Origin: Acidobacteriota bacterium | GTDB lineage: Bacteria > Acidobacteriota > Blastocatellia > RBC074 | Direction of reading: 5' to 3' | Length of the DNA stretch: 64,000 nt | Assembly: GCA_016196035.1 (NCBI GenBank) | Contig: JACPYM010000059.1 | Coordinates: 52,528-116,527 of the forward strand | Part shown: in pieces, positions 34,841 through 48,836 of the stretch | Layout: each line of letters opens with the position of its first letter | Numbering within the stretch: the stretch's first letter is position 1 | Position numbers and translations under genes: made by a program | Notes under the pieces: generated by a model | The model's input: only the letters and a program-made list of their open reading frames with translations | Told to the model about the DNA's origin: nothing | Database searches by the model: none

Positions 34841-34861
34841 GATGACTTAAGTCACTGCCAA
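34841..34861. promoter_or_regulatory. Candidate operator: GATGACTTAAGTCACTGCCAA (perfect 12-bp palindrome TGACTTAAGTCA) ~90 bp upstream of ric
   Basis: 23-nt stretch identical to 38256..38278 upstream of flavoprotein-Rieske operon. Confidence 0.45.
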
Positions 34862-34940
34862 GCCGTGCCCTGCCGCCTACACTGCACGCATCGTCAAACT
34901 ATCTCAATACTTCTTGGTGAATCACTTGCAGGAGGCATTT

Positions 34941-35741: not shown

Positions 35742-36572
35742 ATGGACATCAACGCCGTTCGCACCATCGCGCGGCAAGAGCTGGTCATCAACATCCGCAA
35801 CAAATGGACGTTAATTTTCGCCTGTGTCTTCGGCGGCTTGGTGCTCACCATTTCCTATTTCGGGATGTTGACGGCGGGTGCGATTGGCTTTCAGAGCTTC
35901 GCGCGCACCTCGGCCAGCTTGCTCAATCTGGTGTTGTATATCGTGCCCCTCGTCGCGTTGACGATGGGCACGCTCAGTTTTACCAGCGAGAAAAGCCTGA
36001 GCGAGATGCTCTTTGCCCAACCCGTCACGCGCACCGAAATCCTGTTGGGGAAACTGGCTGGGTTGTTCGCTTCGATTCTGACGGCAACGCTAATCGGTTT
36101 CGGGCTGGCGGGTTTCATCATCGCGTCGAAAGCGGGCACGCAAGGGTTGCTGCGCTATCCGGTGTTCGTCGCGTTGTCGTTGCTGCTGGCCTTGGTCTTT
36201 CTGACGCTGGCGGCGCTGGTGTCGTCGTTGTGCCAGCGCAAGACCAAGGCGTTCGGCGTGGTGATGTTCCTCTGGTTCTTCTTCGTTTTGTTTTATGACC
36301 TGCTGGTGATCGGCGTGACGTTTTTGCTGAAAGAACACGCGGCCAATCAATTTATCTTCGCCTCGCTGTTTGGCAATCCGGTGGACATGGTGCGCGTCGC
36401 CAGCCTGATGGTGCTGGATGGGAAGGAAGTCTTTGGCGCGGCGGGCGCGGCGCTCACCAGGTTTTTGGGTGGTGAAACGGCGAGCCTGTCCTTATTGATC
36501 GGGGGCTTGGTTGTTTGGACAGTCGTGCCGTTTCTGGCCGCGCGGCGTTTGCTGCAACGGCAGGATATTTAA
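35742..36572 (+). CDS. nosY: ABC-2 type permease, NosY-like (nitrous oxide reductase maturation transporter permease)
   Basis: 6-TM ABC-2 permease whose pattern ('IARQEL..IRNKW', 'TEILLGKLAG') matches NosY as I remember it; the only nosY candidate near nosDFL. Confidence 0.65.
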   Translation: MDINAVRTIARQELVINIRNKWTLIFACVFGGLVLTISYFGMLTAGAIGFQSFARTSASLLNLVLYIVPLVALTMGTLSFTSEKSLSEMLFAQPVTRTEILLGKLAGLFASILTATLIGFGLAGFIIASKAGTQGLLRYPVFVALSLLLALVFLTLAALVSSLCQRKTKAFGVVMFLWFFFVLFYDLLVIGVTFLLKEHAANQFIFASLFGNPVDMVRVASLMVLDGKEVFGAAGAALTRFLGGETASLSLLIGGLVVWTVVPFLAARRLLQRQDI

Positions 36573-36665
36573 CGCTGATGTTTTGATGCGCCGCGTCTTT
36601 GGAGCGCGTGCGGCACCGGCTGCCGCTTTGGCATCTCTTTGATCGTTCATACATCAAGGAAATAC

Positions 36666-36840: not shown

Positions 36841-36922
36841 TCTGAAGCGGCAGCCGGTGCCGCACGCACTCCAAAGGCTGCGCCTAGCCGATTTGCCCTC
36901 ATGGAATCGCGGGTAAATAACA

Positions 36923-38113
36923 ATGAAGCGTTGGCATAGCATCCTGGCAATCCTCTTCGTCCCGCTCCTCGTCGCGGGCGGCGGATTGCTAGTGCGGCAT
37001 CTCGCGCGCGAACGCACCGAACGCGGCCATTTCGAGCGTAGCGAAACCGAGTTGATGGTGACCAATCTGGCGCGCGTGCCGGTGCAGTTGTTCAAAGCGG
37101 GCCGTAACTTGGCCGAGGCGCAACTGCTCAATGATTTCGACGGCGCGCGCCGCTGGCTGTCAGGGGGCAATCACTTTCTGAAAGCCAACTTCCCCCACCG
37201 CGAAGTTTTTTATCCTATTCCTCTCATCGGTTATCGGCGCGGCCCCGATGCCGAAGGTGCATTCATCATCACAATTCGTTCGCTGAATGAGATGGAACCG
37301 CCAAGCGCAGCCAACGGGCAACACGGCTGGGCGTTCATCCCGAATGGCAGCTTCCTGTTGGGCGACCGGCAAAACCCGCGCGAGCCGCATTATGTCTGGC
37401 TGCCAGGCTTTTTCATCGGCAAGTTTGAAGTGAGCAATGCCGAATACACCGAGTTTCTACGCGCTCCGCAGGGCTACGCTGACGATGCGCAGTGGACGGA
37501 AGCCGGGCGCGTATGGAAGGCCGCGAATACTTCGCAAAGCAGCGCCTTGCTCAAATCGGTTGCGGCGGAATTCGAACGCTTCGGCCAACCCGATCAGCCG
37601 GTGACGGGGGTAACGTGGTTCGAGGCGCAAGCCTATTGCCGCTGGCTGACCAGTCGCTTTGGCGAACGGAAATGGCTTTACGCGCTGCCTTCAGAAGCCG
37701 AATGGGAAAAGGCTGCACGCGGGCCAGATGGTTTTGATTTTGCGCTTAGCCAGACGCTCAGCGATCAAGAGGTACAGCTTTACAATTGGAGGAAGAACCC
37801 CGACGCGCCCGTCACAGTCGTCGGAGCAGCCGAAACGCCCGCGCTTTATCTACCAAACCGCTTCGGCATTTTTCACCTCGGCGGCAATGTCGTCGAGTGG
37901 ACGAGTTCGATCACCAACCCCTTTAATCGCGAACATCTTTACCTCGATGAAGAGCGCAACCGCCTCGAAGGCGGTGAAGAGCGCGTGGCGCGTGGCGGTT
38001 CGTGGTATAGCGCGAGCATCGCCTTGCTGGGTGTGGCCTATCGCGACTCGTTTCGGCCTGAGATCACGCATCACGATTTGGGCTTTCGCATCGTGGCGCG
38101 ACCGCTGCCCTAA
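36923..38113 (+). CDS. FGE-sulfatase (SUMF1/formylglycine-generating enzyme) domain protein with N-terminal membrane anchor; NirV-like
   Basis: 'GVTWFEAQAYCRWL', 'LPSEAEWEKAARG', 'RGGSWYS' FGE-domain motifs. Confidence 0.75.
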   Translation: MKRWHSILAILFVPLLVAGGGLLVRHLARERTERGHFERSETELMVTNLARVPVQLFKAGRNLAEAQLLNDFDGARRWLSGGNHFLKANFPHREVFYPIPLIGYRRGPDAEGAFIITIRSLNEMEPPSAANGQHGWAFIPNGSFLLGDRQNPREPHYVWLPGFFIGKFEVSNAEYTEFLRAPQGYADDAQWTEAGRVWKAANTSQSSALLKSVAAEFERFGQPDQPVTGVTWFEAQAYCRWLTSRFGERKWLYALPSEAEWEKAARGPDGFDFALSQTLSDQEVQLYNWRKNPDAPVTVVGAAETPALYLPNRFGIFHLGGNVVEWTSSITNPFNREHLYLDEERNRLEGGEERVARGGSWYSASIALLGVAYRDSFRPEITHHDLGFRIVARPLP

Positions 38114-38257
38114 CCTGGGAGCGCAGGCATCCCGCCTGCCGTCAAACAAAGCCGCGTAGCATCCTTATCTTGACGAAAAGGGTAAGGATGCTGCGCGCTT
38201 TTCTTATTTGCAGGCGGGACGCCTGCGCCCCCAGGAAATGCAAATAAATTTCGCACC

Positions 38258-38278
38258 GATGACTTAAGTCACTGCCAA
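38258..38278. promoter_or_regulatory. Candidate operator copy 2: GATGACTTAAGTCACTGCCAA ~150 bp upstream of flavoprotein gene
   Basis: Identical to 34841..34861. Confidence 0.45.
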
Positions 38279-38423: not shown

Positions 38424-40355
38424 ATGAGCGACTTCAAGTACAAGACCATCCTTCCCGACATTGAATTTTGGAAAGCTATGGTGCCTTGCCAGGCGGCGTG
38501 CCCGGTCAATACCGATGCGGGCCGCTATGTGCAACTGATCGCGCAGGGCAAATTTGAAGACGCCTATTTCGTCGCGCGTTCGCCCAATCCGTTGGCTTCG
38601 GTGTGCGGGCGCATCTGTGCCGCGCCGTGTGAAGACCGTTGCCGACGCGGCAAGATAGACGCGCCCGTCAGCATTCGCGCGTTGAAGCGCTTCGTCACCG
38701 AACGTTACGGCGTCGAATCGCTCGCGCCCGATACGCAGGATCAATTGCGCGTGGGCCACGGCGATTTGGGCAACAAGGTGCGCGGGCATTTGCCGATCTT
38801 GCAAGCCAATCGCCGCCAGACGCCGCGCGGGCAAAAAGTCGCCGTCATCGGCGCGGGGCCTGCCGGGCTGGCTTGCGCGCACGATCTGGCGTTGATGGGT
38901 TATCGCGTGACGATTTTTGAAGCCACCGAACAAGCGGGCGGGATGATGTTTCATGGCATTCCCGAATTCCGCTTGCCGCGCGCCGTCATTGCCAAAGAGA
39001 TAGACAAGATCGAACAGCTCGGCGTCGAGATTCGCTACGGCACGCCGCTGACGGCTGAGTTCGGGTTGCAGGAATTGAAAGCGGATGGCTACGTCGCCGT
39101 CTTCCTCAGCGTCGGCGTGCAAAAAGGCCGCGACCTCAATATCGAAGGGGCCGAACTCGACGGCGTCATCAAAGCCGTGGATTACCTGATCAACATCAAC
39201 AACGGTTACCGCATGCAGTTGGGCAAGAAGGTGCTCGTCATCGGCGGCGGCTTCGTCGCCTTTGACGCCGCGCGGCTGGCGTTGCGCGCAGGGTTGGAGG
39301 CAGGAGGTGAACAGGATGAAGGCGCAGGTGAATTGAAAACCGCCCTCGACGCTGCGCGCGCCGCCGTCAGAGCAGGTGCGACCGAAGTACATATGGTCAG
39401 TTTGGAATCCTTTGACGAATTGCCGGTGATGCGCACGACGCAGGGCAAGGAAGAGTTTGAAGAGGCGCACCGCGAAGGCATCGTCTTTCATCCGCAACGC
39501 AGCGCGCGCCGCTTCGTCAGCCGCAATGGCCGCGTGCAGGCAGCGGAATTCAAAGGCGTCAAACGCACCTATGACGAACAGGGCCGCTTCAGTCCGCAAT
39601 TCGACGAAGACTTTAGCGAAACGCTGGAAGCCGATTCGGTGATTCTCGCCATCGGCCAGCAAGCCGATCTCTCGTTCATCAAACCCGCCGACGGCGTCGA
39701 GCTTACGCCGCAAGGCACGATCAAGGTGGAGCGCGCGACGCTAGCGACGAGTGCGCCCGGCCTCTTCGCGGGCGGCGACGTGGCGTTTGGCCCGCGCAAC
39801 TTGATCGAAGCCGTGGCGAACGGCAAACGCGCGGCGCTCTCGATTGACGATTACTTGCACAGCGCCGAGACGCACACGGTTTTCAACCTGACGGTCGAAC
39901 GACTGCCCAATCGCACCTATACGATGCCGGAAGAGTATGAGCAACTGGCGCGGCATACCCCGCCGACCATCGCGCTCGACCGCCGCACCGGCATCTCGGA
40001 AGTCGAGACCGGCTACAACGAAGCGCAGGCGCGTGAGCAGGCTGAACGCTGTTTGTCGTGTCACATCCAAACCATCTATGACCCGGCGAAATGCGTGCTG
40101 TGCAACCGCTGTGTGGACGTGTGCCCGGAATACTGTTTGAAGCTGGTGCCGCTGGATGAGCTTGATCTGGATGAACCGACGAAGGAACGCATCGTGGCTG
40201 ATTCGGGCATCACGGTCGAGTTGGGGCAACCCTTATCAGCAATGATCAAAGACGATGACAAGTGCATCCGTTGTGGTTTGTGCGCGCTGCGCTGCCCGAC
40301 GGACGCGATGACGATGGAGGTCTTCTACTATGAAGAGCAAGCAGTCGTGGCTTAA
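38424..40355 (+). CDS. GltD/NfnB/SudA-like NAD(P)H-dependent FeS flavoprotein oxidoreductase with C-terminal 2x[4Fe-4S] ferredoxin domain
   Basis: N-terminal Cys-cluster domain, 'VAVIGAGPAGLACA' FAD and 'VLVIGGGFVAFDAA' NAD(P) Rossmann motifs, C-terminal 'CVLCNRCVDVCP' and 'CIRCGLCALRCP'; 3' end overlaps Rieske gene. Confidence 0.75.
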   Translation: MSDFKYKTILPDIEFWKAMVPCQAACPVNTDAGRYVQLIAQGKFEDAYFVARSPNPLASVCGRICAAPCEDRCRRGKIDAPVSIRALKRFVTERYGVESLAPDTQDQLRVGHGDLGNKVRGHLPILQANRRQTPRGQKVAVIGAGPAGLACAHDLALMGYRVTIFEATEQAGGMMFHGIPEFRLPRAVIAKEIDKIEQLGVEIRYGTPLTAEFGLQELKADGYVAVFLSVGVQKGRDLNIEGAELDGVIKAVDYLININNGYRMQLGKKVLVIGGGFVAFDAARLALRAGLEAGGEQDEGAGELKTALDAARAAVRAGATEVHMVSLESFDELPVMRTTQGKEEFEEAHREGIVFHPQRSARRFVSRNGRVQAAEFKGVKRTYDEQGRFSPQFDEDFSETLEADSVILAIGQQADLSFIKPADGVELTPQGTIKVERATLATSAPGLFAGGDVAFGPRNLIEAVANGKRAALSIDDYLHSAETHTVFNLTVERLPNRTYTMPEEYEQLARHTPPTIALDRRTGISEVETGYNEAQAREQAERCLSCHIQTIYDPAKCVLCNRCVDVCPEYCLKLVPLDELDLDEPTKERIVADSGITVELGQPLSAMIKDDDKCIRCGLCALRCPTDAMTMEVFYYEEQAVVA

Positions 40356-40947
40356 CGCGCGAATTTCAAATTTGAGAGCGAAGACAGAAACCGAGCAACA
40401 GCGGCTGGAGCGCCTCAAGCAGGAAGTTCTGGGCGAAGGCGAAGCCGCCAGCCGGCCCACGCGGCGCTCCTTTCTCACGCGGCTCGGGTTCGGCGCGACG
40501 CTGCTGGCGCTCGCTGGGCAGGCCTACGCCTTCCTGCGCTCGCTCAAACCGAATGTGCTGTACGAAGCGCCGCAACGCTTCAAGGTCGGCACACCCGATC
40601 AATTCGGCGAAGGCGGCAAATTCCTCGAAGACAAACGCCTGTTTGTGTTTCGGCAAGGCAAGACGTTTTACGCCATCTCGGCAAGCTGCACGCATCTGGG
40701 CTGCACGGTCAAAATGGAGAAGCTCAACCAGCCGAAGAAGGTCAAGACGCGCCAGCGCGAATTCGAGGAGCAATACGAATTTCATTGCCCTTGCCACGGC
40801 TCGAAGTATTACGGCGACGGGACGAATTACGCCGGCCCCGCGCCGCGCCCGCTCGATTATTTCAAACTCGAACTGGCGGCAGAGGACGGGCAATTGATCG
40901 TGGATATGGAGCAGAAGGTCGGGCAGGACTTTCGCTTGACAGTGTAG
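40330..40947 (+). CDS. Rieske [2Fe-2S] protein with Tat signal
   Basis: 'RRSFLTRLG' Tat motif; 'CTHLGCTV' and 'CPCHGSKY' Rieske boxes. Confidence 0.8.
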   Translation: MKSKQSWLNARISNLRAKTETEQQRLERLKQEVLGEGEAASRPTRRSFLTRLGFGATLLALAGQAYAFLRSLKPNVLYEAPQRFKVGTPDQFGEGGKFLEDKRLFVFRQGKTFYAISASCTHLGCTVKMEKLNQPKKVKTRQREFEEQYEFHCPCHGSKYYGDGTNYAGPAPRPLDYFKLELAAEDGQLIVDMEQKVGQDFRLTV

Positions 40948-41032
40948 CCGGGGACTAGCGGCTAGGGACTAGGGGCTGGAATTAAGCCACTGTCGCTAGC
41001 CCCTAGCCCCTGGCCTCTAACCCCTAAAAATT
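40948..41032. repeat. Intergenic CTAGGGG/CCCCTAG repeat hairpin (Rieske-cyt b spacer)
   Basis: gggactagcggctagggactaggggctgg ... gctagcccctagcccctggcc. Confidence 0.5.
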
Positions 41033-42349
41033 ATGGCAGCGAGAAAATCAACTTGGGAAAAGATCACGTGGACGTGGCAGCCCGCGAGCGAGCGCGAAGC
41101 CGGGGATTCCATCGTGCGCAACTTTTTGCTGCATTGGTTTCCGGCCAAGGTCGCGCGCGAAAGCCTGTCGTGGGGCTACTCGTTCTGGCTCGGTACGGTG
41201 TCGGCGGTGCTCTTTCTGATCCTGACGATCACGGGCGGCGTGCTGATGTTTCTGTACGTGCCGTCGGTCGAACGTGCCTATTTGTCGGTCAAGGATTTGG
41301 AATTCACCGTCTCGTTCGGCTGGTTCCTGCGCGGGCTGCATCGCATCGGCGCGCACCTGATGGTGGCGTTTGTGTTTGTGCATATGGTGCGCGTCTTCCT
41401 GACCGGCGCGTACAAGAACGGCACGGCGACGCAGCAGAACCGTCCGTTGAACTGGGTGATTGGCGTCGTGCTGTTGTTGGCGACGTTGCTGCTCTCATTC
41501 ACCGGTTATCTATTGCCGTGGGATCAACTGGCCTATTGGGCGATCACCGTCGGCACGAATATCGCCAGCGCCGCGCCCGTCGTGGGCGAGGCAATGCGCT
41601 TCATTTTGCTGGGCGGCAACACGATCGAGCAAGGCACGCTGATTCGTTTTTACGTGCTGCATTGTTTCTTCCTGCCGCTGCTGGTGCTGGCGTTGTTCTC
41701 GTATCACATGTGGCGCGTGCGCAAAGACGGCGGCTTGGCTTGCGTAGACAAACAGGCGCTCGACCAAAAGCGCGAAAAGGTCGTGCCGAGCAAGAGCAAG
41801 ACCTATTCGCTGCTGGGCATTGCGAGCGGCGCGTCCGTGCACGTTGAGACTTCGCTGGTGGATGAAGTCCAGCACACGGTGCCGTCATCGCCCACGCTGA
41901 CGCGGCGTTTGGCGTTGGTGACGATGGTGACGCTCGCGCTCTCTTCGGTGTTGACACTGCTCTTCCATGCGCCGCTCGAAGCCGCCGCCAACCCTGCCGT
42001 CACGCCAAATCCGGCCAAAGCGCCTTGGTACTTTCTCTGGTTGCAAGAACTGGTCACGATCACCACCTTTACCGTGGGTGGTTACACCATCAATGGCGCG
42101 TTGATCGGCGGCATCATTATTCCAGGCTTGTTGGTCGCGGCGGCCATCGCGTGGCCCTACTTCGACAAGAGTTCGGTGCGCTCGGTGGGCGTGTGGTTTG
42201 CGCCGGAGCGCCGCAAGCAGAATTTGATTTTCTTGCTGGTGGTCGCGGGGATTTTGCTCTTCACCATCATCGGCACGTATCTGCGCGGGCCGTATTGGAA
42301 TTGGTATTGGCCGTGGCAAAGCTGGCCGGTGATGCCGCGTAAGTTTTGA
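41033..42349 (+). CDS. Cytochrome b (b6/bc-type, quinol-oxidising subunit)
   Basis: Polytopic; 'HRIGAHLMVAFVFVHMVRVF' bis-His heme-ligand helix typical of cytochrome b. Confidence 0.8.
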   Translation: MAARKSTWEKITWTWQPASEREAGDSIVRNFLLHWFPAKVARESLSWGYSFWLGTVSAVLFLILTITGGVLMFLYVPSVERAYLSVKDLEFTVSFGWFLRGLHRIGAHLMVAFVFVHMVRVFLTGAYKNGTATQQNRPLNWVIGVVLLLATLLLSFTGYLLPWDQLAYWAITVGTNIASAAPVVGEAMRFILLGGNTIEQGTLIRFYVLHCFFLPLLVLALFSYHMWRVRKDGGLACVDKQALDQKREKVVPSKSKTYSLLGIASGASVHVETSLVDEVQHTVPSSPTLTRRLALVTMVTLALSSVLTLLFHAPLEAAANPAVTPNPAKAPWYFLWLQELVTITTFTVGGYTINGALIGGIIIPGLLVAAAIAWPYFDKSSVRSVGVWFAPERRKQNLIFLLVVAGILLFTIIGTYLRGPYWNWYWPWQSWPVMPRKF

Positions 42350-42436
42350 AGATGGGGGGCAGGGGGGCCAGGGGCCAGTGAATTCAAGCCCCAGCCCCCA
42401 GTCCCTAGACCCCAGCCCCCAAGATCGGAGGTTTTA
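42350..42436. repeat. Intergenic G-tract/C-tract hairpin (cyt b-cyt c spacer)
   Basis: ggggggcaggggggccaggggccag ... ccccagcccccagtccctagaccccagccccc. Confidence 0.5.
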
Positions 42437-43660
42437 GTGTTCAGCAAAGACGCCATCAAAATTTACCTGCTCGGTGTGGTGATGCTGGCCGTGACGGGGT
42501 TCATTTTCTGGGACAACGTGCTGCCTGAATGGAGCGGCTATCAGAGCGATTTCCGCGCGCTGGTCGCCAAGAAATTCGGCGCGGCGCGCGCGGCGGCGGT
42601 GCCCAGCGGCCTGCATCAGATTTGGGTGAAAGACCTCGACCGCGTAGACCGTTGCACGACCTGTCATCAGGGCATGGAATGGAAAGGCCTGGAAAGCGCC
42701 GCGCAACCGTTTCGTTCGCACCCCACCGAAATTCTGAAAGCGCATCCGCTGAATCAATTCGGCTGCACGGCCTGTCACGGCGGGCAAGGTTATGCCACTG
42801 ATCTCGCCGGCGCGCACGGGCAGGTCGAACATTGGGAAGAGCCGCTGCTCGGCAAAAAAGTCAGCGACACCTATCTGGTCAAAGACAAGAAAGCGCTGAT
42901 GCAGGTCAATTGCAATTCCTGTCATCGCTATGAACGCGAAACCAAAGGCGCCGATTACATCAACGAAGCCAAGCAAATCGTGCAGGAAAAAAACTGCCGC
43001 GCCTGCCACACCATCAACGGACGCGGCGGCACCATCGGCCCCGACCTCACCAACGTCGGCGACAAAGCGCCGGAGCAATACGATTACGGTCACGTGTCGG
43101 GGGTGAAAACAGCGTTCGCCTGGCATGTCGCACATTTGCAAAAACCGAAAGCGATGACGCCGGATACGGTCATGCCCGATTTCAATTTCTCTACGCGGCA
43201 GGCGCAGGCGTTGTCCTTGCTTGTCATGAGTTGGAAACGCGCGACGGTGCCGACGCGCTACATCCCCGGCGCGACGCCCAAGGATGTGCCGACGGCGGAA
43301 GAGATCGCCAAAGAGAAACGCATGCTCGAAGGCGAAGGCGCTTTCTTCGTCAAGAAGGGCTGCTTTATCTGCCATTCCGTGGATTCGCTGGGTATTGAGA
43401 ATTCGGCCAAGATCGGGCCGGATTTGTCCGAGGCTGTAACGGACGTGCAGAGCCGCTTTGGCCGCACGCTGGAAGATTTTTTGAAAGCGCCCAACGGTAC
43501 GATGGCCGTGGTGTTGGCGACACAGATTCATTTGACTGACGACGAGAAACGCGAGGCGGTCGAACGTTTGAAGATCGCTTATCAACGCAAGCAGGAGGGC
43601 GCGAAGCCGAACGCTGCGCCCACGCCTGCGGCCTCGCCGTCACCGGTAGCGAAGAAATAA
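42437..43660 (+). CDS. Membrane-anchored pentaheme c-type cytochrome
   Basis: Five CxxCH motifs (CTTCH, CTACH, CNSCH, CRACH, CFICH); N-terminal TM helix. Confidence 0.75.
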   Translation: MFSKDAIKIYLLGVVMLAVTGFIFWDNVLPEWSGYQSDFRALVAKKFGAARAAAVPSGLHQIWVKDLDRVDRCTTCHQGMEWKGLESAAQPFRSHPTEILKAHPLNQFGCTACHGGQGYATDLAGAHGQVEHWEEPLLGKKVSDTYLVKDKKALMQVNCNSCHRYERETKGADYINEAKQIVQEKNCRACHTINGRGGTIGPDLTNVGDKAPEQYDYGHVSGVKTAFAWHVAHLQKPKAMTPDTVMPDFNFSTRQAQALSLLVMSWKRATVPTRYIPGATPKDVPTAEEIAKEKRMLEGEGAFFVKKGCFICHSVDSLGIENSAKIGPDLSEAVTDVQSRFGRTLEDFLKAPNGTMAVVLATQIHLTDDEKREAVERLKIAYQRKQEGAKPNAAPTPAASPSPVAKK

Positions 43661-43803
43661 CCTGGGTTCGCACGCTTCCCAGCGTGCTGTAAAAAAGTCG
43701 CGCAGCGTTCCGAATAAATTCAATTGGGTCGCACGCGATTTAGGGAAAAGGAAGGCTGCGCCGCTTCTTTCATAGCACGCAAGGATGCGTGCGTACCCAG
43801 GGA
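43661..43803. repeat. Family A palindromic element, degenerate copy A4
   Basis: cctgggttcgcacgcttcccagcgtgctg ... gcgtgcgtacccaggg. Confidence 0.6.
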
Positions 43804-43878
43804 AAGGCTGCAACTCCGCGCCGCTCACGGGTTGAAGCTTGACCATCAACCACCGTTCCCATTTGGGGAGGAACCACC

Positions 43879-45744
43879 ATGGAATTACAAACAACAAAAC
43901 TTGATCGCAAGAAAATGAAATGGCTCGGCGCAGGAGCGGTCTGCGTCGCGCTGCTCGGCTTTGCTTTGACCAGTTGCGGCAAGCAACCAAGCACTGCTGA
44001 ATTGGGCGGCACTGCGGAAGCTGCTGCGGCCACTTATGTCGCGCCGGGCGACACCGATGAATATTACCTGTTCTATTCGGGCGGCCATTCGGGCAACGTC
44101 TATGTTGCGGGCGTGCCTTCGATGCGGCACATCTCGACGATTCCCGTGTTTGCGCCTTACCCGGCGACGGGGTATGGCTTTGACGAAGAGTCGAAGAAGA
44201 TGCTGGGCGGGTTCACATGGGGCGACGTGCACCACCCGGCCATCAGCGAGACCAAGGGCGATTACGACGGGCGTTGGCTCTTCGTGAATGACAACGCCAA
44301 CAATCGGCTGGCGCGCATTGACCTGCGCGATTTCAAAACCAAACAGATCCTGGGGCCGATGCCGAATATCTCCGGCTATCACGGCGGTTCGTTCGTGACG
44401 CCTAATACGGAATACGTGTTGGCGGCCTCGCGCTTCTCGGTGCCGTTGCCGAAAGGGACCGTCGAACCGATTGAAAGTTATGCGACGAAATACCACGGGG
44501 TCGTGGCGGGCGTAAAAATTGATCCGACCTCGGGCGAGATGAGCGTCGGTTTTCAAATCCTGATGCCGCCCTTCAATTTTGATTTAGGCGACGCGGGCAA
44601 AGGGCCGAGCGAGGGCTGGGCCTTCTGGACGTGCTACAACTCAGAACGCGCGACCGGCAAGCTCGAAGTGACTTCGACACAAAAAGACCGCGACTACATT
44701 GCAGCGGTGAATTGGAAAGAAGCTGAGAAAGCCGTCGCCGCAGGCAAAGCCAAAATGATCAGCGGCGTGCCGGTGCTTGATCCCAAAGAAGTGCCGGGCA
44801 TCGTTTATTTCGTGCCGTGCAGCAAATCGCCGCACGGCGTGGATGTCACGCCCGATGGCAAATACTTCATCGGCAGCGGCAAGCTGCAATCCATCACGAC
44901 GGCGTTCAACGTCGAGAAGATGCTGACCACGATTCAGAACAAAGATTTCACCGGCAACGAAGACGGCATCCCGGTGCTGAATTACGACAAGGTCAAAGAC
45001 GCCGAAGTCAACGTCGGCCTCGGCCCGCTGCATACGCAATTCGACAATGAGGGCAATGCGTATACCAGCCTCTTTGTCGAGAGCGCCGTGGCGAAATGGA
45101 AGCTTGGCACGTGGGAAGTGCTCGACAAGATTCCAGTTACGTACAACATCGGCCACCTCTGCGCGGCGGAAGGCGACACAGTTCATCCCGCTGGCAAATA
45201 TCTGGTCGCGCTCAATAAGCTTTCGCACGGACGCCACCTGAACGTCGGCCCCTCGCAGCCGGAATGCTCGCAACTCATCAACATCGGCGGCGAAAAGATG
45301 AAGCTGCTCTACGACGCCTTCACCGAACCCGAACCGCATTACGCCCAGATGATCAAGGCCGACAAGCTGAAACCCTTCGAGGTTTATCCCAAAGAAAGCA
45401 ACAAGAACCCGAACGCGATCTGGGACGTGAAGGACGCCAGCGTGGTGCGCAGCGGCAACAACGTCACGGTCAAGCTGGTCGCGGTGCGCAGCAGCTTCGA
45501 GCCCAACAAGATCGAGGTCAACAAAGGTGACACAGTGACGATTCACATCACCAACATCGAACAGACCACCGATGAGCTGCATGGCTTTGGGCTGCTCGAT
45601 TACAACATCAACGTGGTGATAGACCCCGGCGAGACCAAGACGATCAAGTTCGTGGCCGATAAACCGGGTGTTTTCGCCTACTATTGCACCAACTTCTGCT
45701 CGGCGTTGCATCAAGAGATGCAGGGCTATTTGTTGGTGAAGTAG
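43879..45744 (+). CDS. nosZ: Nitrous oxide reductase NosZ (clade II/Sec-dependent, lipoprotein-type signal)
   Basis: C-terminal CuA motif 'CTNFCSALHQEMQGY'; 'LTSC' lipobox rather than Tat motif; size ~620 aa. Confidence 0.9.
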   Translation: MELQTTKLDRKKMKWLGAGAVCVALLGFALTSCGKQPSTAELGGTAEAAAATYVAPGDTDEYYLFYSGGHSGNVYVAGVPSMRHISTIPVFAPYPATGYGFDEESKKMLGGFTWGDVHHPAISETKGDYDGRWLFVNDNANNRLARIDLRDFKTKQILGPMPNISGYHGGSFVTPNTEYVLAASRFSVPLPKGTVEPIESYATKYHGVVAGVKIDPTSGEMSVGFQILMPPFNFDLGDAGKGPSEGWAFWTCYNSERATGKLEVTSTQKDRDYIAAVNWKEAEKAVAAGKAKMISGVPVLDPKEVPGIVYFVPCSKSPHGVDVTPDGKYFIGSGKLQSITTAFNVEKMLTTIQNKDFTGNEDGIPVLNYDKVKDAEVNVGLGPLHTQFDNEGNAYTSLFVESAVAKWKLGTWEVLDKIPVTYNIGHLCAAEGDTVHPAGKYLVALNKLSHGRHLNVGPSQPECSQLINIGGEKMKLLYDAFTEPEPHYAQMIKADKLKPFEVYPKESNKNPNAIWDVKDASVVRSGNNVTVKLVAVRSSFEPNKIEVNKGDTVTIHITNIEQTTDELHGFGLLDYNINVVIDPGETKTIKFVADKPGVFAYYCTNFCSALHQEMQGYLLVK

Positions 45745-45750
45745 TGAGGA

Positions 45751-45884
45751 GACCTCAGACCTCAGACTTCAGACCACAGACCTCAGACCTGTCTTGGATC
45801 GGCGGCCACAGGCGAATTGAGATCGTAGGTCTGAAGTCTGAAGTCTGAGGTCTGAGGTCTGAAGTCTGAGGTCTGAGGTCTGTG
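45751..45884. repeat. Heptamer-repeat hairpin: (CAGACCT)n arm, ~35-nt loop, (AGGTCTG/AAGTCTG)n arm ending at nosB-like start codon
   Basis: gacctcagacctcagacttcagaccacagacctcagacctg ... aggtctgaagtctgaagtctgaggtctgaggtctgaagtctgaggtctgaggtctg. Confidence 0.8.
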
Positions 45885-46517
45885 ATGAAAAGCTGGCTCG
45901 ACAACGCGAACCATTTTTTTGAACTGCCGCTCACGCTGCGCAGCCGCGTGCTGATTCTGGTGGGTGTAGTGCTGTTGACGCCGGTCTTTCTGTTCCCCTT
46001 GTGGAATATGACCTTCAAGTCGAATCAGTATCTCGACGGACTGACGCTCAACATTTACGCCTATCAACTCAAAGGCGGCATGACGCCGAACCGCGATGAT
46101 TTGCGCGAGATCAACTCGCTCAATCATTACATCGGTATGCGTCCGCTGTTGGAAAGCGATTTCGGCGAATTCGTCTGGATTCCCTTTGTCATCGGGGTGC
46201 TGGGCGTGCTGGCGTTGCGCGCTCTGGTCATCGGCAAGATGGCCGGGCTGGTGGATGTCTTTGTGATCTTCACCTATTTCGGGCTGTTCTCGTTCTGGGG
46301 CTTTTACAACAAGCTCTATGCGTATGGACACCATCTTGATCCGACGGCGGCGATCAAGGTGCCGCCGTTCACCCCGCCGCTGCTGGGGACGCAAGTCGTC
46401 GGCAACTTTACGGTGTCGAGCTATCCGGGCGTCGCGTCGTTTGCGCTGGTGTCGTTTGCCGTGTTGTTGCTGGCGGCCATCTTTCTGTCGCGCAAGCAGA
46501 CGAACGAGGCGGCGTGA
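45885..46517 (+). CDS. Polytopic membrane protein, NosB-like (clade II nos accessory)
   Basis: 4-5 TM helices, position directly downstream of nosZ and 4-bp overlap with nosD; assignment by synteny. Confidence 0.5.
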   Translation: MKSWLDNANHFFELPLTLRSRVLILVGVVLLTPVFLFPLWNMTFKSNQYLDGLTLNIYAYQLKGGMTPNRDDLREINSLNHYIGMRPLLESDFGEFVWIPFVIGVLGVLALRALVIGKMAGLVDVFVIFTYFGLFSFWGFYNKLYAYGHHLDPTAAIKVPPFTPPLLGTQVVGNFTVSSYPGVASFALVSFAVLLLAAIFLSRKQTNEAA

Positions 46518-47914
46518 TGTGGCGCAATGTCATCGGGCTGGTTTTGCTGGGAACACTGAGCGCGTTGGCAGTGCGGGCCGACACCTTCACGGTTGGCCTG
46601 CCGCCCGCGCGCTTTCAAGCTTTGACTGACGCCCTTATTGCCGCTCAGCCCGGCGATATTGTGCAAGTTCAACCCGGCACTTACACCGGACAATTCCGGC
46701 TCGACAAACCGCTGACCTTGGTTGGCATTGGCAAACCCGTGTTGCACGGTACAGGCCAGGGCAGCGTCGTAATCATCACGGCTGATCATTGCACCGTGCG
46801 CGGGTTCGTTATCGAACACAGCGGCGGTGATCTGACCGCCGAAGATTCCGGCCTGCTGCTCAAAGCGGATGACAATCTGATCGAAGCGAACGAATTGCGC
46901 GATGTGCTTTACGGCATTTACCTATACCACGCCAGCCGCAACACGCTGCGCGGCAATACGGTGCGCGGGCGGCGCGAACTTGAATTGGGCGAACGTGGCG
47001 CGGCGCTGCACCTCTGGGATTCGCCCGACAACATCATCGAAGACAACACCATCGGTGATGCGCGCGATGGGCTGTACATCCAGGCTTGTTCGGGCACGCT
47101 GGTGCGGCATAACCGTGTGCGCGACGTGCGCTACGGCCTGCATTACATGAACTCGGACGACAATCGGTTTGAGGACAATCTGTTTGAACACAACGTGGCG
47201 GGCGCGGCGATTATGTATTCGCGGCGCATCACGCTGCGACGCAATGCCTTCGCACACAATCGCGGCTTCAGTTCATTCGGCATTCTCTTTCAGGATTGTG
47301 ACGAGATCGTGGCCGAAGAGAATTTCATCATTGATAACGCGACGGGCATTTTTATCGAGGCCCTGCGTAAGAGCAGCTTTCGCCGCAACGTGATCGCCGA
47401 GAATGATCTGGCCTTGCAAATGTTCAGCAACGCCGATCAAACGCTGTTTGCCGCGAATAACTTCGTCGAAAATCTCAGTCCATTGCAGGTCGTCGGCAAA
47501 CGCACCAACGCTGTTTGGCAGGTCAACGGGCAGGGCAATTATTGGAGCGATTACGCCGGTTACGACCTGGACGGCAACGGCATCGGCGATGTGCCGCACA
47601 AGGTGCAAAACGTTTTTGAATACCTCGAAGGCAACTATCCGCGCTTGCGGCTTTACCTGAACAGCCCCGCCGCGCAGGCGTTGGCTGCGGCTGAACAGAG
47701 CTTCCCGATTCTCAAAGGCGCAAACGAAGCCGATACCGCGCCGTTGATGCAGGCCGTCAAGTTGCAGTTCCCGTTGGAAGTGGTGCCGCTGCAAACCGCG
47801 CCACGTCGCGCGACGCAATGGCTGCTGAGTCTCTGCTCATTGCTTAGCGCCAGTGGAGCGTTGTTTGTCATGTGGAAACATCGCCAGCCGCGCGGCGCCA
47901 AGGCAGGAGCCTGA
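46514..47914 (+). CDS. nosD: Periplasmic copper-binding right-handed beta-helix protein NosD
   Basis: Signal peptide, parallel beta-helix repeats ('NxIxxN' ladders), operon position before nosF. Confidence 0.85.
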   Translation: MMWRNVIGLVLLGTLSALAVRADTFTVGLPPARFQALTDALIAAQPGDIVQVQPGTYTGQFRLDKPLTLVGIGKPVLHGTGQGSVVIITADHCTVRGFVIEHSGGDLTAEDSGLLLKADDNLIEANELRDVLYGIYLYHASRNTLRGNTVRGRRELELGERGAALHLWDSPDNIIEDNTIGDARDGLYIQACSGTLVRHNRVRDVRYGLHYMNSDDNRFEDNLFEHNVAGAAIMYSRRITLRRNAFAHNRGFSSFGILFQDCDEIVAEENFIIDNATGIFIEALRKSSFRRNVIAENDLALQMFSNADQTLFAANNFVENLSPLQVVGKRTNAVWQVNGQGNYWSDYAGYDLDGNGIGDVPHKVQNVFEYLEGNYPRLRLYLNSPAAQALAAAEQSFPILKGANEADTAPLMQAVKLQFPLEVVPLQTAPRRATQWLLSLCSLLSASGALFVMWKHRQPRGAKAGA

Positions 47915-47915
47915 A

Positions 47916-48836
47916 ATGAGTATTCACGTAAACCATCTGACCCGCCGGTTTGGCGAACACGTTGCCGTCAACGATGTCTCGTTTGAGATCAAACCGGGCG
48001 AAACCTTTGCGCTGCTCGGGCCGAATGGCAGCGGCAAAACCACCACGTTGAAATGCATCGTGGGCTTGCTCGAACCGACGGCGGGACAAATCCAGATCAA
48101 CCAACTCGATGTTTGGAAAGACCCGCATCAGGCGCGGCGGTTATTCAGTTACTTGCCGCAGCGCGTCGCGTTCCCCGACGGCTTGACGGCGCGCGAAGTG
48201 CTGCAATTTTATGCTGATCTGCGCCAGCTCGCGCCGCAACGCGTAGACACAATCCTCAGCGGCGAACGCTTCCACTTCAACGGCTTCACCGACAAACCGG
48301 TCGGCAAGTTTTCGGGCGGCATGGTGCAACGCCTGGGCCTCGCCGTCGCCTGCCTGCCCGATGCGCCCGTGCTGTTGCTGGATGAGCCGACGGTGAGTCT
48401 TGATCCCGAAGGCGCGCTACGCTTCCGCGCCTTTCTGCAAGCGCTCAAAGCAGAAGGCAAGACGATTGTGTTCACTTCGCACGTGCTGGCCGATGTCGAA
48501 CAACTGGCCGACCGCGTGGCGATTCTGGTGGGCGGCAAACTGGTCGCCATCGAATCCATCACCGCTTTGCGCGAAGGGCTGATGCGCAGCAGCCGCATGC
48601 GCGTCGTCTTGCGCGCGCCGCAGCCATCCTTGCAAACGGCCGCGCTGACGGCAGGCGCGAGCGAAGTTTTGGTTGAAGGCGAATCCTTGCTGATTGTTTC
48701 GCGCCCGGAAGACCGGTTGGAGATTTTGCGGGCGCTCGAAAACAACGGCGGGCACGTCGAGCGCTTTGCCACTGAAGAGCTTTCGCTGGAAGACATCTAT
48801 CTGCGCTACATCGAGGAATCAGCAACACACGTGTGA
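47916..48836 (+). CDS. nosF: ABC transporter ATP-binding protein NosF
   Basis: Walker A 'GPNGSGKTT', signature 'FSGGMVQRLGLA', Walker B 'LLLDEPT'. Confidence 0.85.
   Translation: MSIHVNHLTRRFGEHVAVNDVSFEIKPGETFALLGPNGSGKTTTLKCIVGLLEPTAGQIQINQLDVWKDPHQARRLFSYLPQRVAFPDGLTAREVLQFYADLRQLAPQRVDTILSGERFHFNGFTDKPVGKFSGGMVQRLGLAVACLPDAPVLLLDEPTVSLDPEGALRFRAFLQALKAEGKTIVFTSHVLADVEQLADRVAILVGGKLVAIESITALREGLMRSSRMRVVLRAPQPSLQTAALTAGASEVLVEGESLLIVSRPEDRLEILRALENNGGHVERFATEELSLEDIYLRYIEESATHV

What the first reader, a model, noticed from the sequence alone, without database searches (positions are those of the whole stretch)
38424..45744. GltD-like NAD(P)H FeS-flavoprotein/ferredoxin fusion coupled to Rieske-cyt b-pentaheme cyt c-nosZ
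A 643-aa GltD/NfnB/SudA-type flavoprotein with a C-terminal 2x[4Fe-4S] ferredoxin domain ends 26 nt inside the Rieske gene. The block continues Rieske, cytochrome b, pentaheme cytochrome c, nosZ on one strand. Rieske/cyt bc modules are described in clade II nos clusters, but I do not know of a soluble NAD(P)H-linked FeS-flavoprotein as their first gene. It could be a new electron-input or redox-sensing module for N2O respiration, or a Cys-rich maturation factor.
Basis: partly seen in the sequence, partly recalled or inferred. Interest (0 to 1): 0.7.

Follow-up and report, generated by a model that had tools for sequence, protein, structure and literature searches.

The report
NosZ-linked Rieske/cytochrome b complex with flavoprotein
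The flavoprotein gene is real and is an obligate partner of the Rieske/cytochrome b genes that feed the N2O reductase, and the four genes are homologues of the unusual anammox complexes proposed to make NAD(P)H from quinol, so it is a widespread soil variant of a known but untested kind of respiratory complex.

Summary
Window 38424-45744 encodes, on one strand, a 643-aa cytoplasmic NfnB/GltD-type FeS-flavoprotein with a C-terminal 2x[4Fe-4S] domain, a TAT-type Rieske protein whose start overlaps it by 26 nt, a long cytochrome b, a membrane-anchored pentaheme cytochrome c and a Sec-type (clade II) NosZ.

The flavoprotein is not a stray neighbour. In 66 related genome loci it is followed by Rieske in 54/54, by cytochrome b in 52/52 and by cytochrome c in 49/49 loci with enough sequence; NosZ follows in 38/44. 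Starting from NosZ instead, 20 of 28 metagenome loci carry all four genes, 8 carry none, and none has Rieske/cytochrome b without the flavoprotein.

All four proteins are homologous to the Kuenenia Kuste4569-4573 complex, whose NAD(P) oxidoreductase subunit is proposed to take one electron of bifurcated quinol oxidation. An invariant cytochrome b histidine (H34) aligns with the residue predicted there to bind an extra heme.

Differences here are a fused cytochrome b, no heme cn cysteine, five hemes c, an NADH-like Leu-Glu motif, and NosZ as terminal enzyme.

Verdict: a new variant of a known, biochemically uncharacterised kind. Direction of electron flow is not settled.

The parts
34842..34855 (+). 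CRP/FNR-type palindrome ATGACTTAAGTCAC, 72 nt upstream of the RIC/ScdA gene
   Evidence: It is identical to the box at 38259. The pattern occurs 6 times against 1.46 expected, and 0 of 100 shuffles reach 6.
34914..35714 (+). Di-iron FeS-cluster repair protein (RIC/ScdA/YtfE)
   Evidence: ScdA_N plus Hemerythrin. TIGR03652 at 229.8 bits, above the cut-off of 204.7. It lies next to the nos genes in many related loci.
35742..36572 (+). NosY-like ABC-2 permease, displaced upstream of the cluster in this genome
   Evidence: ABC2_membrane_2. In most related loci its orthologue follows NosL.
36923..38113 (+). FGE-sulfatase-domain protein that travels with nos clusters
   Evidence: Orthologues follow NosY in L013, L021, L024, L079, L080 and L085.
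38114..38235 (+). 122-nt near-perfect palindromic element whose inner stem is followed by a T-run; a terminator or insulator before the flavoprotein gene
   Evidence: 19-bp stem at 38153-38197 followed by CTTTTCTTAT. (minimum free energy -90.8 kcal/mol, z -12.9).
38259..38272 (+). CRP/FNR-type palindrome ATGACTTAAGTCAC, 165 nt upstream of the flavoprotein start
   Evidence: A GTGA-N6-TCAC core lies within 300 nt upstream of the flavoprotein gene in 18/51 related loci, against 10% of random 300-nt windows.
38424..40355 (+). Cytoplasmic NAD(H)-binding FeS-flavoprotein: an N-terminal 6-Cys FeS domain, FAD and NAD(P) Rossmann domains, an RCLSCH motif, and a C-terminal 2x[4Fe-4S] domain
40330..40947 (+). 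Rieske [2Fe-2S] subunit with a TAT motif (RR at 44-45), CTHLGC and CPCHGSKYY
   Evidence: The best solved relatives are 9rk4 (Kuste4569, E 3.8e-24) and 9rk3 (Kustd1480, E 8.9e-21).
41033..42349 (+). Long cytochrome b, a fusion of a b6-like part and a subunit IV-like part. Its Qo motif is APWY, H34 is invariant, and it has no heme cn cysteine.
42437..43660 (+). Membrane-anchored pentaheme cytochrome c
   Evidence: All ten heme cysteines are conserved. The N-terminal part is 29% identical to the Kuenenia multiheme subunit.
43661..43803 (+). Second palindromic element of the same family, lying between the cytochrome c gene and nosZ
   Evidence: z -6.4; shared terminal motif AACCTGGGnnCGCAsGC.
43879..45744 (+). 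Clade II (Sec-dependent) nitrous-oxide reductase NosZ with a lipoprotein-type signal peptide
   Evidence: TIGR04246 at 905 bits, cut-off 625.
45882..46517 (+). NosB-like membrane protein of 211 aa with three hydrophobic segments
   Evidence: It matches no Pfam or NCBIfam model. It lies directly after nosZ in essentially all related loci.
46514..47914 (+). NosD
   Evidence: NosD, E 2.5e-45.
47853..48836 (+). NosF, the ABC ATPase
48840..49298 (+). NosL

Best explanation
The 643-aa protein is the cytoplasmic subunit of a four-subunit APWY-type Rieske/cytochrome b complex made of flavoprotein, Rieske protein, fused cytochrome b/subunit IV and pentaheme cytochrome c. The complex is homologous to the NAD(P)-oxidoreductase-bearing complexes of anammox bacteria and here serves a clade II NosZ.

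Most likely mechanism: menaquinol is oxidised at the Qo site. One electron goes downhill through a high-potential Rieske cluster and the pentaheme cytochrome c to periplasmic NosZ and N2O. The other crosses the membrane through the two b hemes, and possibly a third heme held by H34 of both monomers. It then enters the C-terminal 2x[4Fe-4S] domain and runs along the FeS wire to FAD, which reduces NAD+.

NADH made this way could re-enter the chain through complex I, which would raise the energy yield of N2O respiration.

Shown here: gene content, homology, cofactor motifs, topology signals and all-or-none co-occurrence. Inferred: physical docking, the third heme, NADH preference, and above all the direction of electron flow.
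For: 1. The flavoprotein gene is always followed by the other three genes: Rieske in 54/54 loci, plus cytochrome b in 52/52, plus cytochrome c in 49/49.
2. Starting from NosZ, 20/28 loci have all four genes, 8/28 have none and 0 have a partial set.
3. The genes are tightly coupled. A 26-nt overlap with a Shine-Dalgarno-like motif is conserved.
4. All four proteins are homologous to a Kuenenia sp. locus. The flavoprotein is 33% identical end to end (E 2e-100). Cytochrome b is 48% identical. Its C-terminal half is 30% identical to subunit IV and shares NPAKAPWYF. The cytochrome c N-terminal part is 29% identical.
5. The Rieske protein's best solved relatives are Kuste4569 and Kustd1480, about 10 orders of magnitude better than any other Rieske protein. 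Those two proteins were measured at +303 and +335 mV. The CPCHGSKYY motif is identical.
6. Cytochrome b H34 and R230 align with Kuste4571 His43 and Arg247, the predicted ligand and counter-charge of an extra n-side heme. They are invariant in 49/49 sequences.
8. The bifurcation scheme is thermodynamically argued for menaquinone in Hauser et al. 2025, and N2O is an even stronger acceptor. Dibrova 2017, citing de Almeida 2016, reports that complexes containing both cytochrome b and the oxidoreductase subunit are expressed at high levels in Kuenenia.
Against: No biochemical data exist for any member of this family; Kao and Hunte state that no APWY-type complex had been characterised.

The hosts look like heterotrophs. 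The window carries GH127, GH31 and arabinofuranosidase genes, and such organisms should not be short of NADH.

Once the membrane potential is counted, the uphill step is only marginally paid for by the drop from menaquinol to Rieske (my estimate).

The heme cn cysteine present in the anammox cytochrome b is absent here, with WLGT in place of CMGG, so the n-side chemistry may differ.

Arg511 of Kuste4570 corresponds to R562, which is conserved in only 39 of 57 sequences.

A palindromic element lies between the cytochrome c gene and nosZ, so co-transcription of nosZ with the module is not certain.
Confidence: 0.45

Rival explanations
1. The complex is the same but runs the other way. The flavoprotein oxidises NAD(P)H and feeds electrons through the FeS wire to the n-side of cytochrome b, where quinone is reduced. 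The resulting quinol is then oxidised at Qo towards NosZ. The four genes would then be a self-contained NADH:N2O electron-supply cassette.
For: The module behaves as a portable plug-in. It is all-or-none, found in at least eight phylum-level groups, and absent from close relatives such as L078 and L143, whose NosZ is 81-82% identical. A cassette that carries its own dehydrogenase suits horizontal transfer.

The invariant Leu-Glu at the end of the NAD beta2 strand suggests NADH, the main catabolic reductant.

Hauser et al. discuss this option.
Against: It would add nothing that NDH-2 or complex I together with an ordinary bc complex cannot do. Hauser et al. argue it would waste a great deal of energy.

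It needs a working quinone-reduction site on the n-side, but the heme cn cysteine is missing and the bc1-type Qi residues are not present; the sequence there is b6-like, HMWRVRKDGG.

It does not explain why the flavoprotein is never lost from the module.
Confidence: 0.28
2. The flavoprotein is a soluble enzyme that is co-expressed with the Rieske/cytochrome b complex but not attached to it. Examples would be an NAD(P)H:ferredoxin-type oxidoreductase for redox balancing, or one that supplies low-potential electrons to repair or activate FeS and Cu centres during N2O/NO stress.
For: An FeS-repair gene (RIC/ScdA) carries the same upstream palindrome and is a frequent neighbour. NfnB-like proteins usually work as soluble enzymes. 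No direct evidence of docking can be obtained with these tools.
Against: Linkage is to Rieske/cytochrome b (54/54), not to nosZ or RIC. The module keeps the flavoprotein when nosZ is replaced by a Qrc-like neighbour. No NfnA-, GltB- or SudB-type partner gene is present. In Kuenenia, complexes holding both cytochrome b and this type of oxidoreductase subunit are reported. Conserved n-side residues of cytochrome b (H34, R228, R230, K231) point to a partner on that face.
Confidence: 0.12
3. The flavoprotein is a redox sensor or regulator, or a cysteine-rich maturation factor for NosZ.
Against: It has no DNA-binding, signalling or chaperone domain. The cysteines fall into canonical FeS-cluster motifs, and intact FAD and NAD(P) Rossmann motifs are conserved. 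The module also occurs without nosZ. Many clade II NosZ loci lack it altogether, so it cannot be a general maturation factor.
Confidence: 0.03

Closest known systems
Anammox Rieske/cytochrome b complexes with an NAD(P) oxidoreductase subunit (Kuenenia stuttgartiensis Kuste4569-4574 and Kustd1480-1485; Kartal 2013, de Almeida 2016, Hauser 2025)
   Same: All four core subunits are homologous. Shared features are an NfnB-like FeS-flavoprotein with the RCLxC motif and a C-terminal dicluster domain, the APWY Qo motif in NPAKAPWYF, 14-residue histidine spacing in helix D, a conserved n-side histidine (H34 = His43) and arginine (R230 = Arg247), the Rieske motif CPCHGSKYY, and a membrane-anchored multiheme cytochrome c. 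Both are linked to a high-potential N-oxide reductase step.
   Different: The gene order differs, with the flavoprotein first here and Rieske first in Kuenenia. Cytochrome b and subunit IV are fused here and split there. The heme cn cysteine is absent here (WLGT against CMGG). There are five hemes c here, against six or eight. The flavoprotein has Ser-Leu-Glu in place of Tyr-Arg-Arg at the NAD(P) specificity position, plus a 25-45-aa insertion. The terminal enzyme is copper NosZ rather than an HAO-like octaheme protein. The hosts are heterotrophic soil bacteria without an anammoxosome.
Clade II nos clusters with dedicated electron-transport genes (Wolinella NosGH/C1/C2 plus a Rieske/cytochrome bc complex, Hein et al. 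2017; 'Fe-S / Rs / cyt-b / cyt-c' genes drawn upstream of nosZII)
   Same: The cluster has a Sec-type NosZ, a NosB-like membrane protein, NosD, NosF, NosY and NosL. A figure legend in the ISME J 2026 paper on Acidobacteriota lists 'Fe-S', 'Rs', 'cyt-b' and 'cyt-c' as labels in nosZII clusters of cultured strains.
   Different: The gene labelled generically 'Fe-S' has not, in any paper I could read, been recognised as an NAD(P)H flavoprotein or linked to the anammox complexes. There are no NosG/NosH genes here. The key reviews (Hein and Simon 2019, Sanford 2012) were not available, so earlier mention cannot be excluded.
NfnB, the Bfu-type NfnABC large subunit (PDB 9bov/9bp5, 4ylf, 5jca) and GltD
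   Same: These are the best sequence matches in the PDB (E 5e-76 to 1e-41). They share the FeS domain, the FAD domain and the NAD(P) domain. The RCLxC motif and dicluster region align with residues about 565-671 of 9bov.
   Different: No NfnA, GltB or molybdopterin partner is present. The N-terminal segment is shorter, with the Fer4_20 match starting at profile position 31. Scores fall below every NCBIfam cut-off, for example TIGR01317 at 194 bits against 447.7. The protein has Leu-Glu in place of Arg-Arg.
Other APWY-clade Rieske/cytochrome b complexes (Kao and Hunte 2014), such as the Geobacter ExtP/ExtQ/ExtS genes and the p-cresol methylhydroxylase-linked complex
   Same: The Qo motif is APWY and the Rieske protein is predicted to be high-potential. 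The best NCBIfam hits for cytochrome b and cytochrome c are ExtP, ExtQ and ExtS.
   Different: All Ext scores are below cut-off (242 bits against 290). Those systems are proposed to run in reverse, from a periplasmic donor to menaquinone, which does not fit an N2O reductase partner.

Membership tests
NAD(P)-oxidoreductase-bearing Rieske/cytochrome b complex (anammox Kuste4569-4573 type) | The Rieske subunit belongs to the Kuste4569/Kustd1480 subfamily | tested here: met
   9rk4 at E 3.8e-24 and 9rk3 at E 8.9e-21, with the next Rieske protein at 3.2e-13. The identities of the two PDB entries are confirmed.
NAD(P)-oxidoreductase-bearing Rieske/cytochrome b complex (anammox Kuste4569-4573 type) | An NfnB-like FeS-flavoprotein with a C-terminal dicluster domain is encoded in the same gene cluster | tested here: met
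   33% identity over 640 columns, E 2e-100, collinear with L074:7961-9703. The overlap with the Rieske gene is shown.
NAD(P)-oxidoreductase-bearing Rieske/cytochrome b complex (anammox Kuste4569-4573 type) | A b6-type cytochrome b with four heme-ligand histidines and an APWY Qo motif in the subunit IV part | tested here: met
   The ligands are H103/H117 and H210/H225, and APWY at 330-333 is invariant.
NAD(P)-oxidoreductase-bearing Rieske/cytochrome b complex (anammox Kuste4569-4573 type) | An n-side histidine predicted to hold an extra inter-monomer heme b (Kuste4571 His43), with Arg247 | tested here: met
   One search aligns H34 with His43 and R230 with Arg247, and both are invariant in 49/49 sequences. 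The heme itself is only an AlphaFold3 prediction in the literature.
NAD(P)-oxidoreductase-bearing Rieske/cytochrome b complex (anammox Kuste4569-4573 type) | A heme cn attachment motif (CxGG) and a split cytochrome b6 / subunit IV | tested here: not met
   WLGT stands in place of CMGG and is invariant in the family. Cytochrome b is a single 438-aa fusion.
NAD(P)-oxidoreductase-bearing Rieske/cytochrome b complex (anammox Kuste4569-4573 type) | A membrane-anchored multiheme cytochrome c subunit | tested here: met
   Five CXXCH motifs and an N-terminal TM helix. Homology covers only the N-terminal two-heme part (29%, E 1e-9). The heme count differs.
NAD(P)-oxidoreductase-bearing Rieske/cytochrome b complex (anammox Kuste4569-4573 type) | Physical assembly of the flavoprotein with cytochrome b, and quinol-driven NAD(P)+ reduction | not testable with these tools
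   This needs purification, complexome profiling or enzymology. It has not been demonstrated enzymatically even for the anammox complexes.
Clade II (Sec-dependent) nos gene cluster | NosZ of the Sec-dependent type | tested here: met
   TIGR04246 at 905.2 bits (cut-off 625), against 483.9 bits for the TAT model TIGR04244, which falls below its cut-off. There is a lipoprotein-like signal peptide and no twin arginine.
Clade II (Sec-dependent) nos gene cluster | NosD, NosF, NosY and NosL accessory genes, and a membrane protein (NosB) directly after nosZ | tested here: met
   The NosB assignment rests on position and TM segments only, because no family model exists.
Glutamate synthase small subunit (GltD), NfnB or SudA | A score above the family cut-off, and a partner subunit gene (GltB, NfnA or SudB) next door | tested here: not met
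   TIGR01317 scores 194 bits against 447.7, TIGR01316 288 against 471.75, and NF009410 427 against 516. The neighbours are Rieske/cytochrome b in 54/54 loci.
Canonical cytochrome bc1 / b6f complex | A PEWY/PDWY Qo motif, a cytochrome c1 or f subunit, and no cytoplasmic dehydrogenase subunit | tested here: not met
   The motif is APWY, the cytochrome is a pentaheme c rather than c1 or f, and the flavoprotein gene is obligatorily linked.

The most novel reading that the evidence does not exclude
The nos-linked complex is a menaquinol:(N2O, NAD+) bifurcating oxidoreductase. Part of the large free energy of N2O reduction would be stored as NADH, which then returns through complex I. That would give clade II N2O reducers that carry the module a higher proton-per-electron yield. 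It would also make common soil bacteria from at least eight phylum-level groups a far more accessible system than anammox bacteria for testing whether a Rieske/cytochrome b complex can reduce NAD+.
Probability: 0.3. Interest if true: 0.85.

Novelty: new variant of a known kind. Interest (0 to 1): 0.6.

Why it matters
N2O reductase is the only biological sink for a major greenhouse gas, and clade II NosZ of Acidobacteriota is among the most abundant nosZ groups in soils. How electrons reach clade II NosZ, and how much energy is conserved on the way, is poorly understood.

This analysis shows that the Rieske/cytochrome b genes seen upstream of nosZ in this lineage, and in relatives across several phyla, form a four-subunit unit with an NAD(H)-binding FeS-flavoprotein. 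That unit is the counterpart of the enigmatic anammox complexes.

If the bifurcation hypothesis holds, the unit links N2O respiration directly to the NADH pool and changes the energy budget of N2O reducers. If it does not, the family still provides many non-anammox organisms in which a question open since at least 2013 can be tested.

Tried and rejected
1. AlphaFold2 on the flavoprotein with a 27-sequence alignment gave mean pLDDT 56.8, with both FeS domains below 50. I did not use it for fold searches. The sequence search of the PDB was sufficient.
2. I looked for a cultured, named host of the module. All three protein-database searches returned only MAGs and metagenome proteins, so I cannot confirm from these data that Anaeromyxobacter or any other isolate carries it.
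3. I searched the literature for an explicit link between this flavoprotein and nos, using six queries and a seventh on Acidobacteriota. I found none. Sanford 2012, Hein and Simon 2019 and Dibrova 2013 are not held, so absence is not proven.
4. I looked for fusions of the flavoprotein with Rieske or cytochrome b among the 150 best cluster representatives. The longer proteins carry TPR or other unrelated extensions.
5. The sigma-70 promoter scan of 34.5-50.5 kb was not above chance, with 5 sites found against 4.8 expected. Only the hairpin and the palindromic boxes are informative.
6. I considered filing the protein as GltD, NfnB, SudA or 'formate dehydrogenase (NADP+) beta subunit', which is the JGI label. 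I rejected this because scores are below cut-off and no partner genes are present.
7. The N-terminal cytoplasmic extension of the Rieske protein (residues 1-43) is not conserved in sequence, so it is not evidence for a docking element.

Full report
**1. Observation**

The five ORFs are at the stated coordinates on the + strand. The first (38424-40355, 643 aa) has the stated domain order.
- Fer4_20 at 21-94.
- Pyr_redox_2 at 138-467.
- A dicluster ferredoxin domain at 551-631 with two CxxCxxCxxxCP motifs.

It has no hydrophobic segment or signal peptide, so it is cytoplasmic.

The next four genes encode the following.
- A Rieske protein with a twin-arginine motif (RR at 44-45), CTHLGC and CPCHGS.
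- A 438-aa cytochrome b with seven hydrophobic segments.
- A cytochrome c with an N-terminal anchor and five CXXCH motifs.
- A NosZ that passes the Sec-dependent (clade II) model at 905 bits against a cut-off of 625.

A NosB-like membrane protein, NosD, NosF and NosL follow. A RIC/ScdA FeS-repair gene, a NosY-like permease and an FGE-sulfatase-domain gene lie upstream.

The flavoprotein stop codon overlaps the Rieske start by 26 nt, and a GGAGG lies nine nt before the ATG. An identical protein is on record from an Acidobacteria MAG, labelled only 'FAD-dependent oxidoreductase'.

**2. Is the flavoprotein part of the block?**

I sampled in two independent ways.

Starting from the flavoprotein, a scan of one genome per species returned 73 loci, 66 of which carry a flavoprotein more than 40% identical to the window's. 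They come from:
- Blastocatellia
- Pyrinomonadaceae
- Terriglobia
- Bryobacteraceae
- Vicinamibacterales
- Kryptonia
- Ignavibacteriales
- Myxococcota
- Desulfocapsaceae and Desulfobulbaceae
- KSB1
- Aminicenantes
- other groups

| Sequence available beyond the flavoprotein gene | Genes that follow | Loci |
|---|---|---|
| at least 700 nt | Rieske | 54/54 |
| at least 2.2 kb | Rieske and cytochrome b | 52/52 |
| at least 3.5 kb | Rieske, cytochrome b and pentaheme cytochrome c | 49/49 |
| at least 2.5 kb beyond cytochrome c | NosZ | 38/44 |

The six exceptions are KSB1, Aminicenantes, a Terriglobia chromosome and others. There the same four genes sit beside a Qrc-like complex of molybdopterin, FeS and NrfD subunits with a pentaheme cytochrome and a porin-cytochrome. 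One Desulfocapsaceae locus has two tandem copies of the four-gene module before nosZ.

Starting from NosZ, I examined 80 metagenome loci. Of the 28 with at least 6.3 kb upstream, 20 have all four genes, 8 have none, and none has Rieske/cytochrome b without the flavoprotein. Close relatives can lack the module. L078 and L143 have NosZ 81-82% identical, with RIC directly upstream, and in L078 a small monoheme cytochrome c as well.

The four genes therefore behave as one unit that is gained or lost as a whole. The 26-nt overlap with a Shine-Dalgarno-like motif recurs in at least 17 loci, and 37 of 50 loci overlap.

**3. Transcription signals**

The FGE gene is followed by a 122-nt near-perfect hairpin (38114-38235; -90.8 kcal/mol, z -12.9). 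Its inner 19-bp stem is followed by a T-run.

A palindrome, ATGACTTAAGTCAC, lies 165 nt upstream of the flavoprotein start. It matches the CRP/FNR consensus TTGA-N6-TCAA except at the two outer positions. The identical 14-mer lies 72 nt upstream of the RIC gene (consensus as used).

A GTGA-N6-TCAC core is found within 300 nt upstream of the flavoprotein gene in 18/51 related loci, against 10% of random windows.

This fits the flavoprotein gene being the first gene of a regulated unit. One caveat is that a second palindromic element of the same family lies between the cytochrome c gene and nosZ (43661-43803, z -6.4, no T-run). Co-transcription of nosZ with the module is therefore likely but not shown.

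**4. What it is related to**

*Rieske protein.* Its two best solved relatives are 9rk4 and 9rk3 (E 3.8e-24 and 8.9e-21). The next is at 3.2e-13, and b6f Rieske proteins are near 1e-7. [quoted passage not shown] Their measured potentials are +303 and +335 mV.

*Kuenenia locus.* I recovered a Kuenenia sp. locus through the 9rk4 sequence. It encodes, in order, a Rieske protein, a 581-aa flavoprotein, cytochrome b6, a subunit IV-like protein, a multiheme cytochrome c and an HAO-like protein.

| Window protein | Kuenenia sp. counterpart | Identity | E-value | Shared features |
|---|---|---|---|---|
| Flavoprotein | 581-aa flavoprotein | 33%, collinear end to end | 2e-100 | RCLxC motif and both dicluster motifs |
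| Cytochrome b, N-terminal half | cytochrome b6 | 48% | 9e-62 | heme-ligand histidines, HxWRVRKDGG |
| Cytochrome b, C-terminal half | subunit IV-like protein | 30% | 9e-21 | NPAKAPWYF |
| Cytochrome c, anchor and first two hemes | multiheme cytochrome c | 29% | 1e-9 | N-terminal anchor, first two heme motifs |

*Cytochrome b.* It belongs to the 'APWY clade' of Kao and Hunte. They noted that no member had been characterised and that the paired Rieske proteins are predicted to be mid-to-high potential.

*Earlier notice.* Dibrova et al. [quoted passage not shown] Citing de Almeida 2016, they also reported that complexes containing both are expressed at high levels in Kuenenia.

**5. Conserved cofactor features in the nos-linked family**

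*Flavoprotein.* All 17 cysteines are conserved in 56 sequences.
- Six are N-terminal: C22, C26, C61, C65, C69 and C73.
- Three are C543, C546 and C571.
- Eight belong to the dicluster domain.

The FAD (GxGxxG) and NAD(P) (GGGxxAxDxAR) motifs are also conserved.

*Cytochrome b.* The four heme-ligand histidines (H103/H117 and H210/H225, with b6-type spacing), H34, R228, R230, K231, D232 and APWY are invariant in 49/49 sequences.

H34 and R230 align with Kuste4571 His43 and Arg247. In the published AlphaFold3 model these hold an additional b heme at the dimer axis on the n-side, between heme bN and the first FeS cluster of the flavoprotein.

*Differences from the anammox proteins.*
- The heme cn cysteine is absent, with WLGT for CMGG, invariantly.
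- Cytochrome b and subunit IV are fused.
- There are five hemes c.
- The flavoprotein has [S/C]-L-E where the Kuenenia protein and the NADPH-dependent PDB relatives have Y-R-R at the end of the second strand of the dinucleotide fold. L and E are present in 56/56 sequences.
- The flavoprotein carries a 25-45-aa insertion.

An acidic residue at the end of that strand is the classical mark of NAD over NADP preference. This rests on established knowledge of Rossmann folds and is an inference here.

*Family size.* In the library of 50%-identity cluster representatives, 3,565 proteins match at E 1e-30 or better. Among the best 150, 80 have the full architecture. Of these, 49 carry xLE and 16 carry xRR. 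The family is large and the Leu-Glu type predominates near this protein.

**6. Mechanism**

*Shown.* The module encodes a cytoplasmic NAD(H)/FAD protein with about four FeS clusters, a Qo-competent Rieske/cytochrome b pair with a high-potential-type Rieske protein, a periplasmic multiheme cytochrome c and, in most cases, NosZ.

*Inferred.* I take the published anammox hypothesis as the most likely mechanism.
- Menaquinol is oxidised at Qo.
- One electron runs to Rieske, the pentaheme cytochrome c, NosZ and N2O.
- The other runs through bP, bN and possibly the H34 heme, then along the FeS wire to FAD, and reduces NAD+.

N2O/N2 (about +1.35 V) is a stronger sink than the nitrite/NO couple invoked for Kuenenia. 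Acidobacteria use menaquinone, which makes the uphill half-reaction (about -74 to -320 mV) payable by the downhill one (-74 to at least +300 mV), as argued. Counting the membrane potential, the margin is thin; this is my estimate.

NADH returning through complex I would raise the charge translocated per N2O. This might relate to the higher growth yields reported for some clade II N2O reducers. That report is recalled from memory (Yoon et al. 2016) and was not checked here.

The main rival is the opposite direction, with NADH as donor. It is downhill and suits a portable cassette. However, it duplicates NDH-2 or complex I, and it needs an n-side quinone site for which the usual residues and heme cn are missing.

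A detached soluble enzyme, a sensor or a maturation factor fit the linkage data poorly.

**7. Novelty and limits**

The kind of complex is known as a hypothesis from anammox bacteria, and its wider co-occurrence with this cytochrome b subfamily has been remarked.

Rieske/cytochrome b genes in clade II nos clusters are also known. A 2026 paper on N2O-reducing Acidobacteriota labels 'Fe-S', 'Rs', 'cyt-b' and 'cyt-c' genes in nosZII clusters. I could not see that figure.

In the searchable library I found no statement that the nos-linked 'Fe-S' gene is the NAD(P)-oxidoreductase subunit of an anammox-type complex, nor the all-or-none linkage, the NADH-type motif or the H34 correspondence. Several key reviews were not available.

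No experiment bears on function, all hosts found are uncultured, and my structure model was too poor to use.

I therefore rate this a new variant of a known kind. Interest is moderate to high, because it moves an open bioenergetic question into abundant soil bacteria.

Noticed in passing
window 34842-34855 and 38259-38272: The identical 14-mer palindrome ATGACTTAAGTCAC (CRP/FNR-type, xTGA-N6-TCAx) lies upstream of both the RIC/ScdA gene and the flavoprotein gene. This suggests that the FeS-repair unit and the respiratory unit share one regulon. No CRP/FNR-family regulator gene was seen among the window ORFs I scanned.
   Followed up: partly
window 38114-38235, 43661-43803; partial match at 23676-23692: A family of long intergenic palindromic elements starts with AACCTGGGnnCGCAsGC and ends with its reverse complement. 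They fold into 120-145-nt hairpins (z -12.9 and -6.4). One follows the FGE gene and one sits inside the operon between the cytochrome c gene and nosZ. The cytochrome c-nosZ spacer varies from about 0 to 680 nt in related loci. They may be REP/MITE-like elements or transcript-processing or stabilising structures.
   Followed up: partly
window 38424-40355, residues 292-328: The flavoprotein has a 30-aa insertion that repeats the DAARxAxRAG helix motif. It also has Ser-Leu-Glu where NADPH-type relatives and the Kuenenia homologue have Tyr-Arg-Arg. Leu-Glu is invariant in 56 family members, which suggests NADH rather than NADPH specificity.
   Followed up: partly
window 35742-38113, compared with L010, L013, L024, L079, L080 and L085: In this genome and a few relatives (L001, L003, L023, L031, L076), nosY and/or the FGE-sulfatase-domain gene lie upstream of the flavoprotein gene. 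In most relatives they come at the 3' end of the cluster, after nosL. Here an RskA-type anti-sigma factor gene (49471-50271) follows nosL, with no sigma factor gene beside it.
   Followed up: no
window 36923-38113; L074 15353-16795: An FGE-sulfatase-domain protein travels with nos clusters across many loci, and a TPR-FGE-sulfatase gene also lies next to the Kuenenia Rieske/cytochrome b/HAO cluster. Formylglycine-generating enzymes are copper enzymes, so a role in Cu handling or protein modification for these periplasmic enzymes is conceivable. This was not tested.
   Followed up: no
L056 4676-14761: A Desulfocapsaceae MAG carries two tandem, diverged copies of the whole four-gene module (flavoprotein, Rieske, cytochrome b, cytochrome c) upstream of a divergent NosZ that is 47% identical to the window's.
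   Followed up: no
L048, L049, L051, L054 and L062 (KSB1, Aminicenantes and others): Where nosZ is absent, the four-gene module lies next to a Qrc-like set. This comprises a QrcA-like pentaheme cytochrome, a molybdopterin subunit, a 4Fe-4S subunit and an NrfD-type membrane subunit, all below the family cut-offs. EB_dh-domain and porin-cytochrome fusion proteins are also present. The module may therefore serve other periplasmic or extracellular redox partners.
   Followed up: partly
window 32619-34343: Two long ORFs overlap almost completely on opposite strands: 567 aa on + (32634-34337) and 574 aa on - (32619-34343). Neither matches any Pfam family.
   Followed up: no
L078 9532-9915 and L143: Close relatives with NosZ 81-82% identical lack the whole four-gene module. 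RIC lies directly upstream of nosZ, and in L078 a small monoheme cytochrome c as well. The module is therefore optional even within this lineage.
   Followed up: partly
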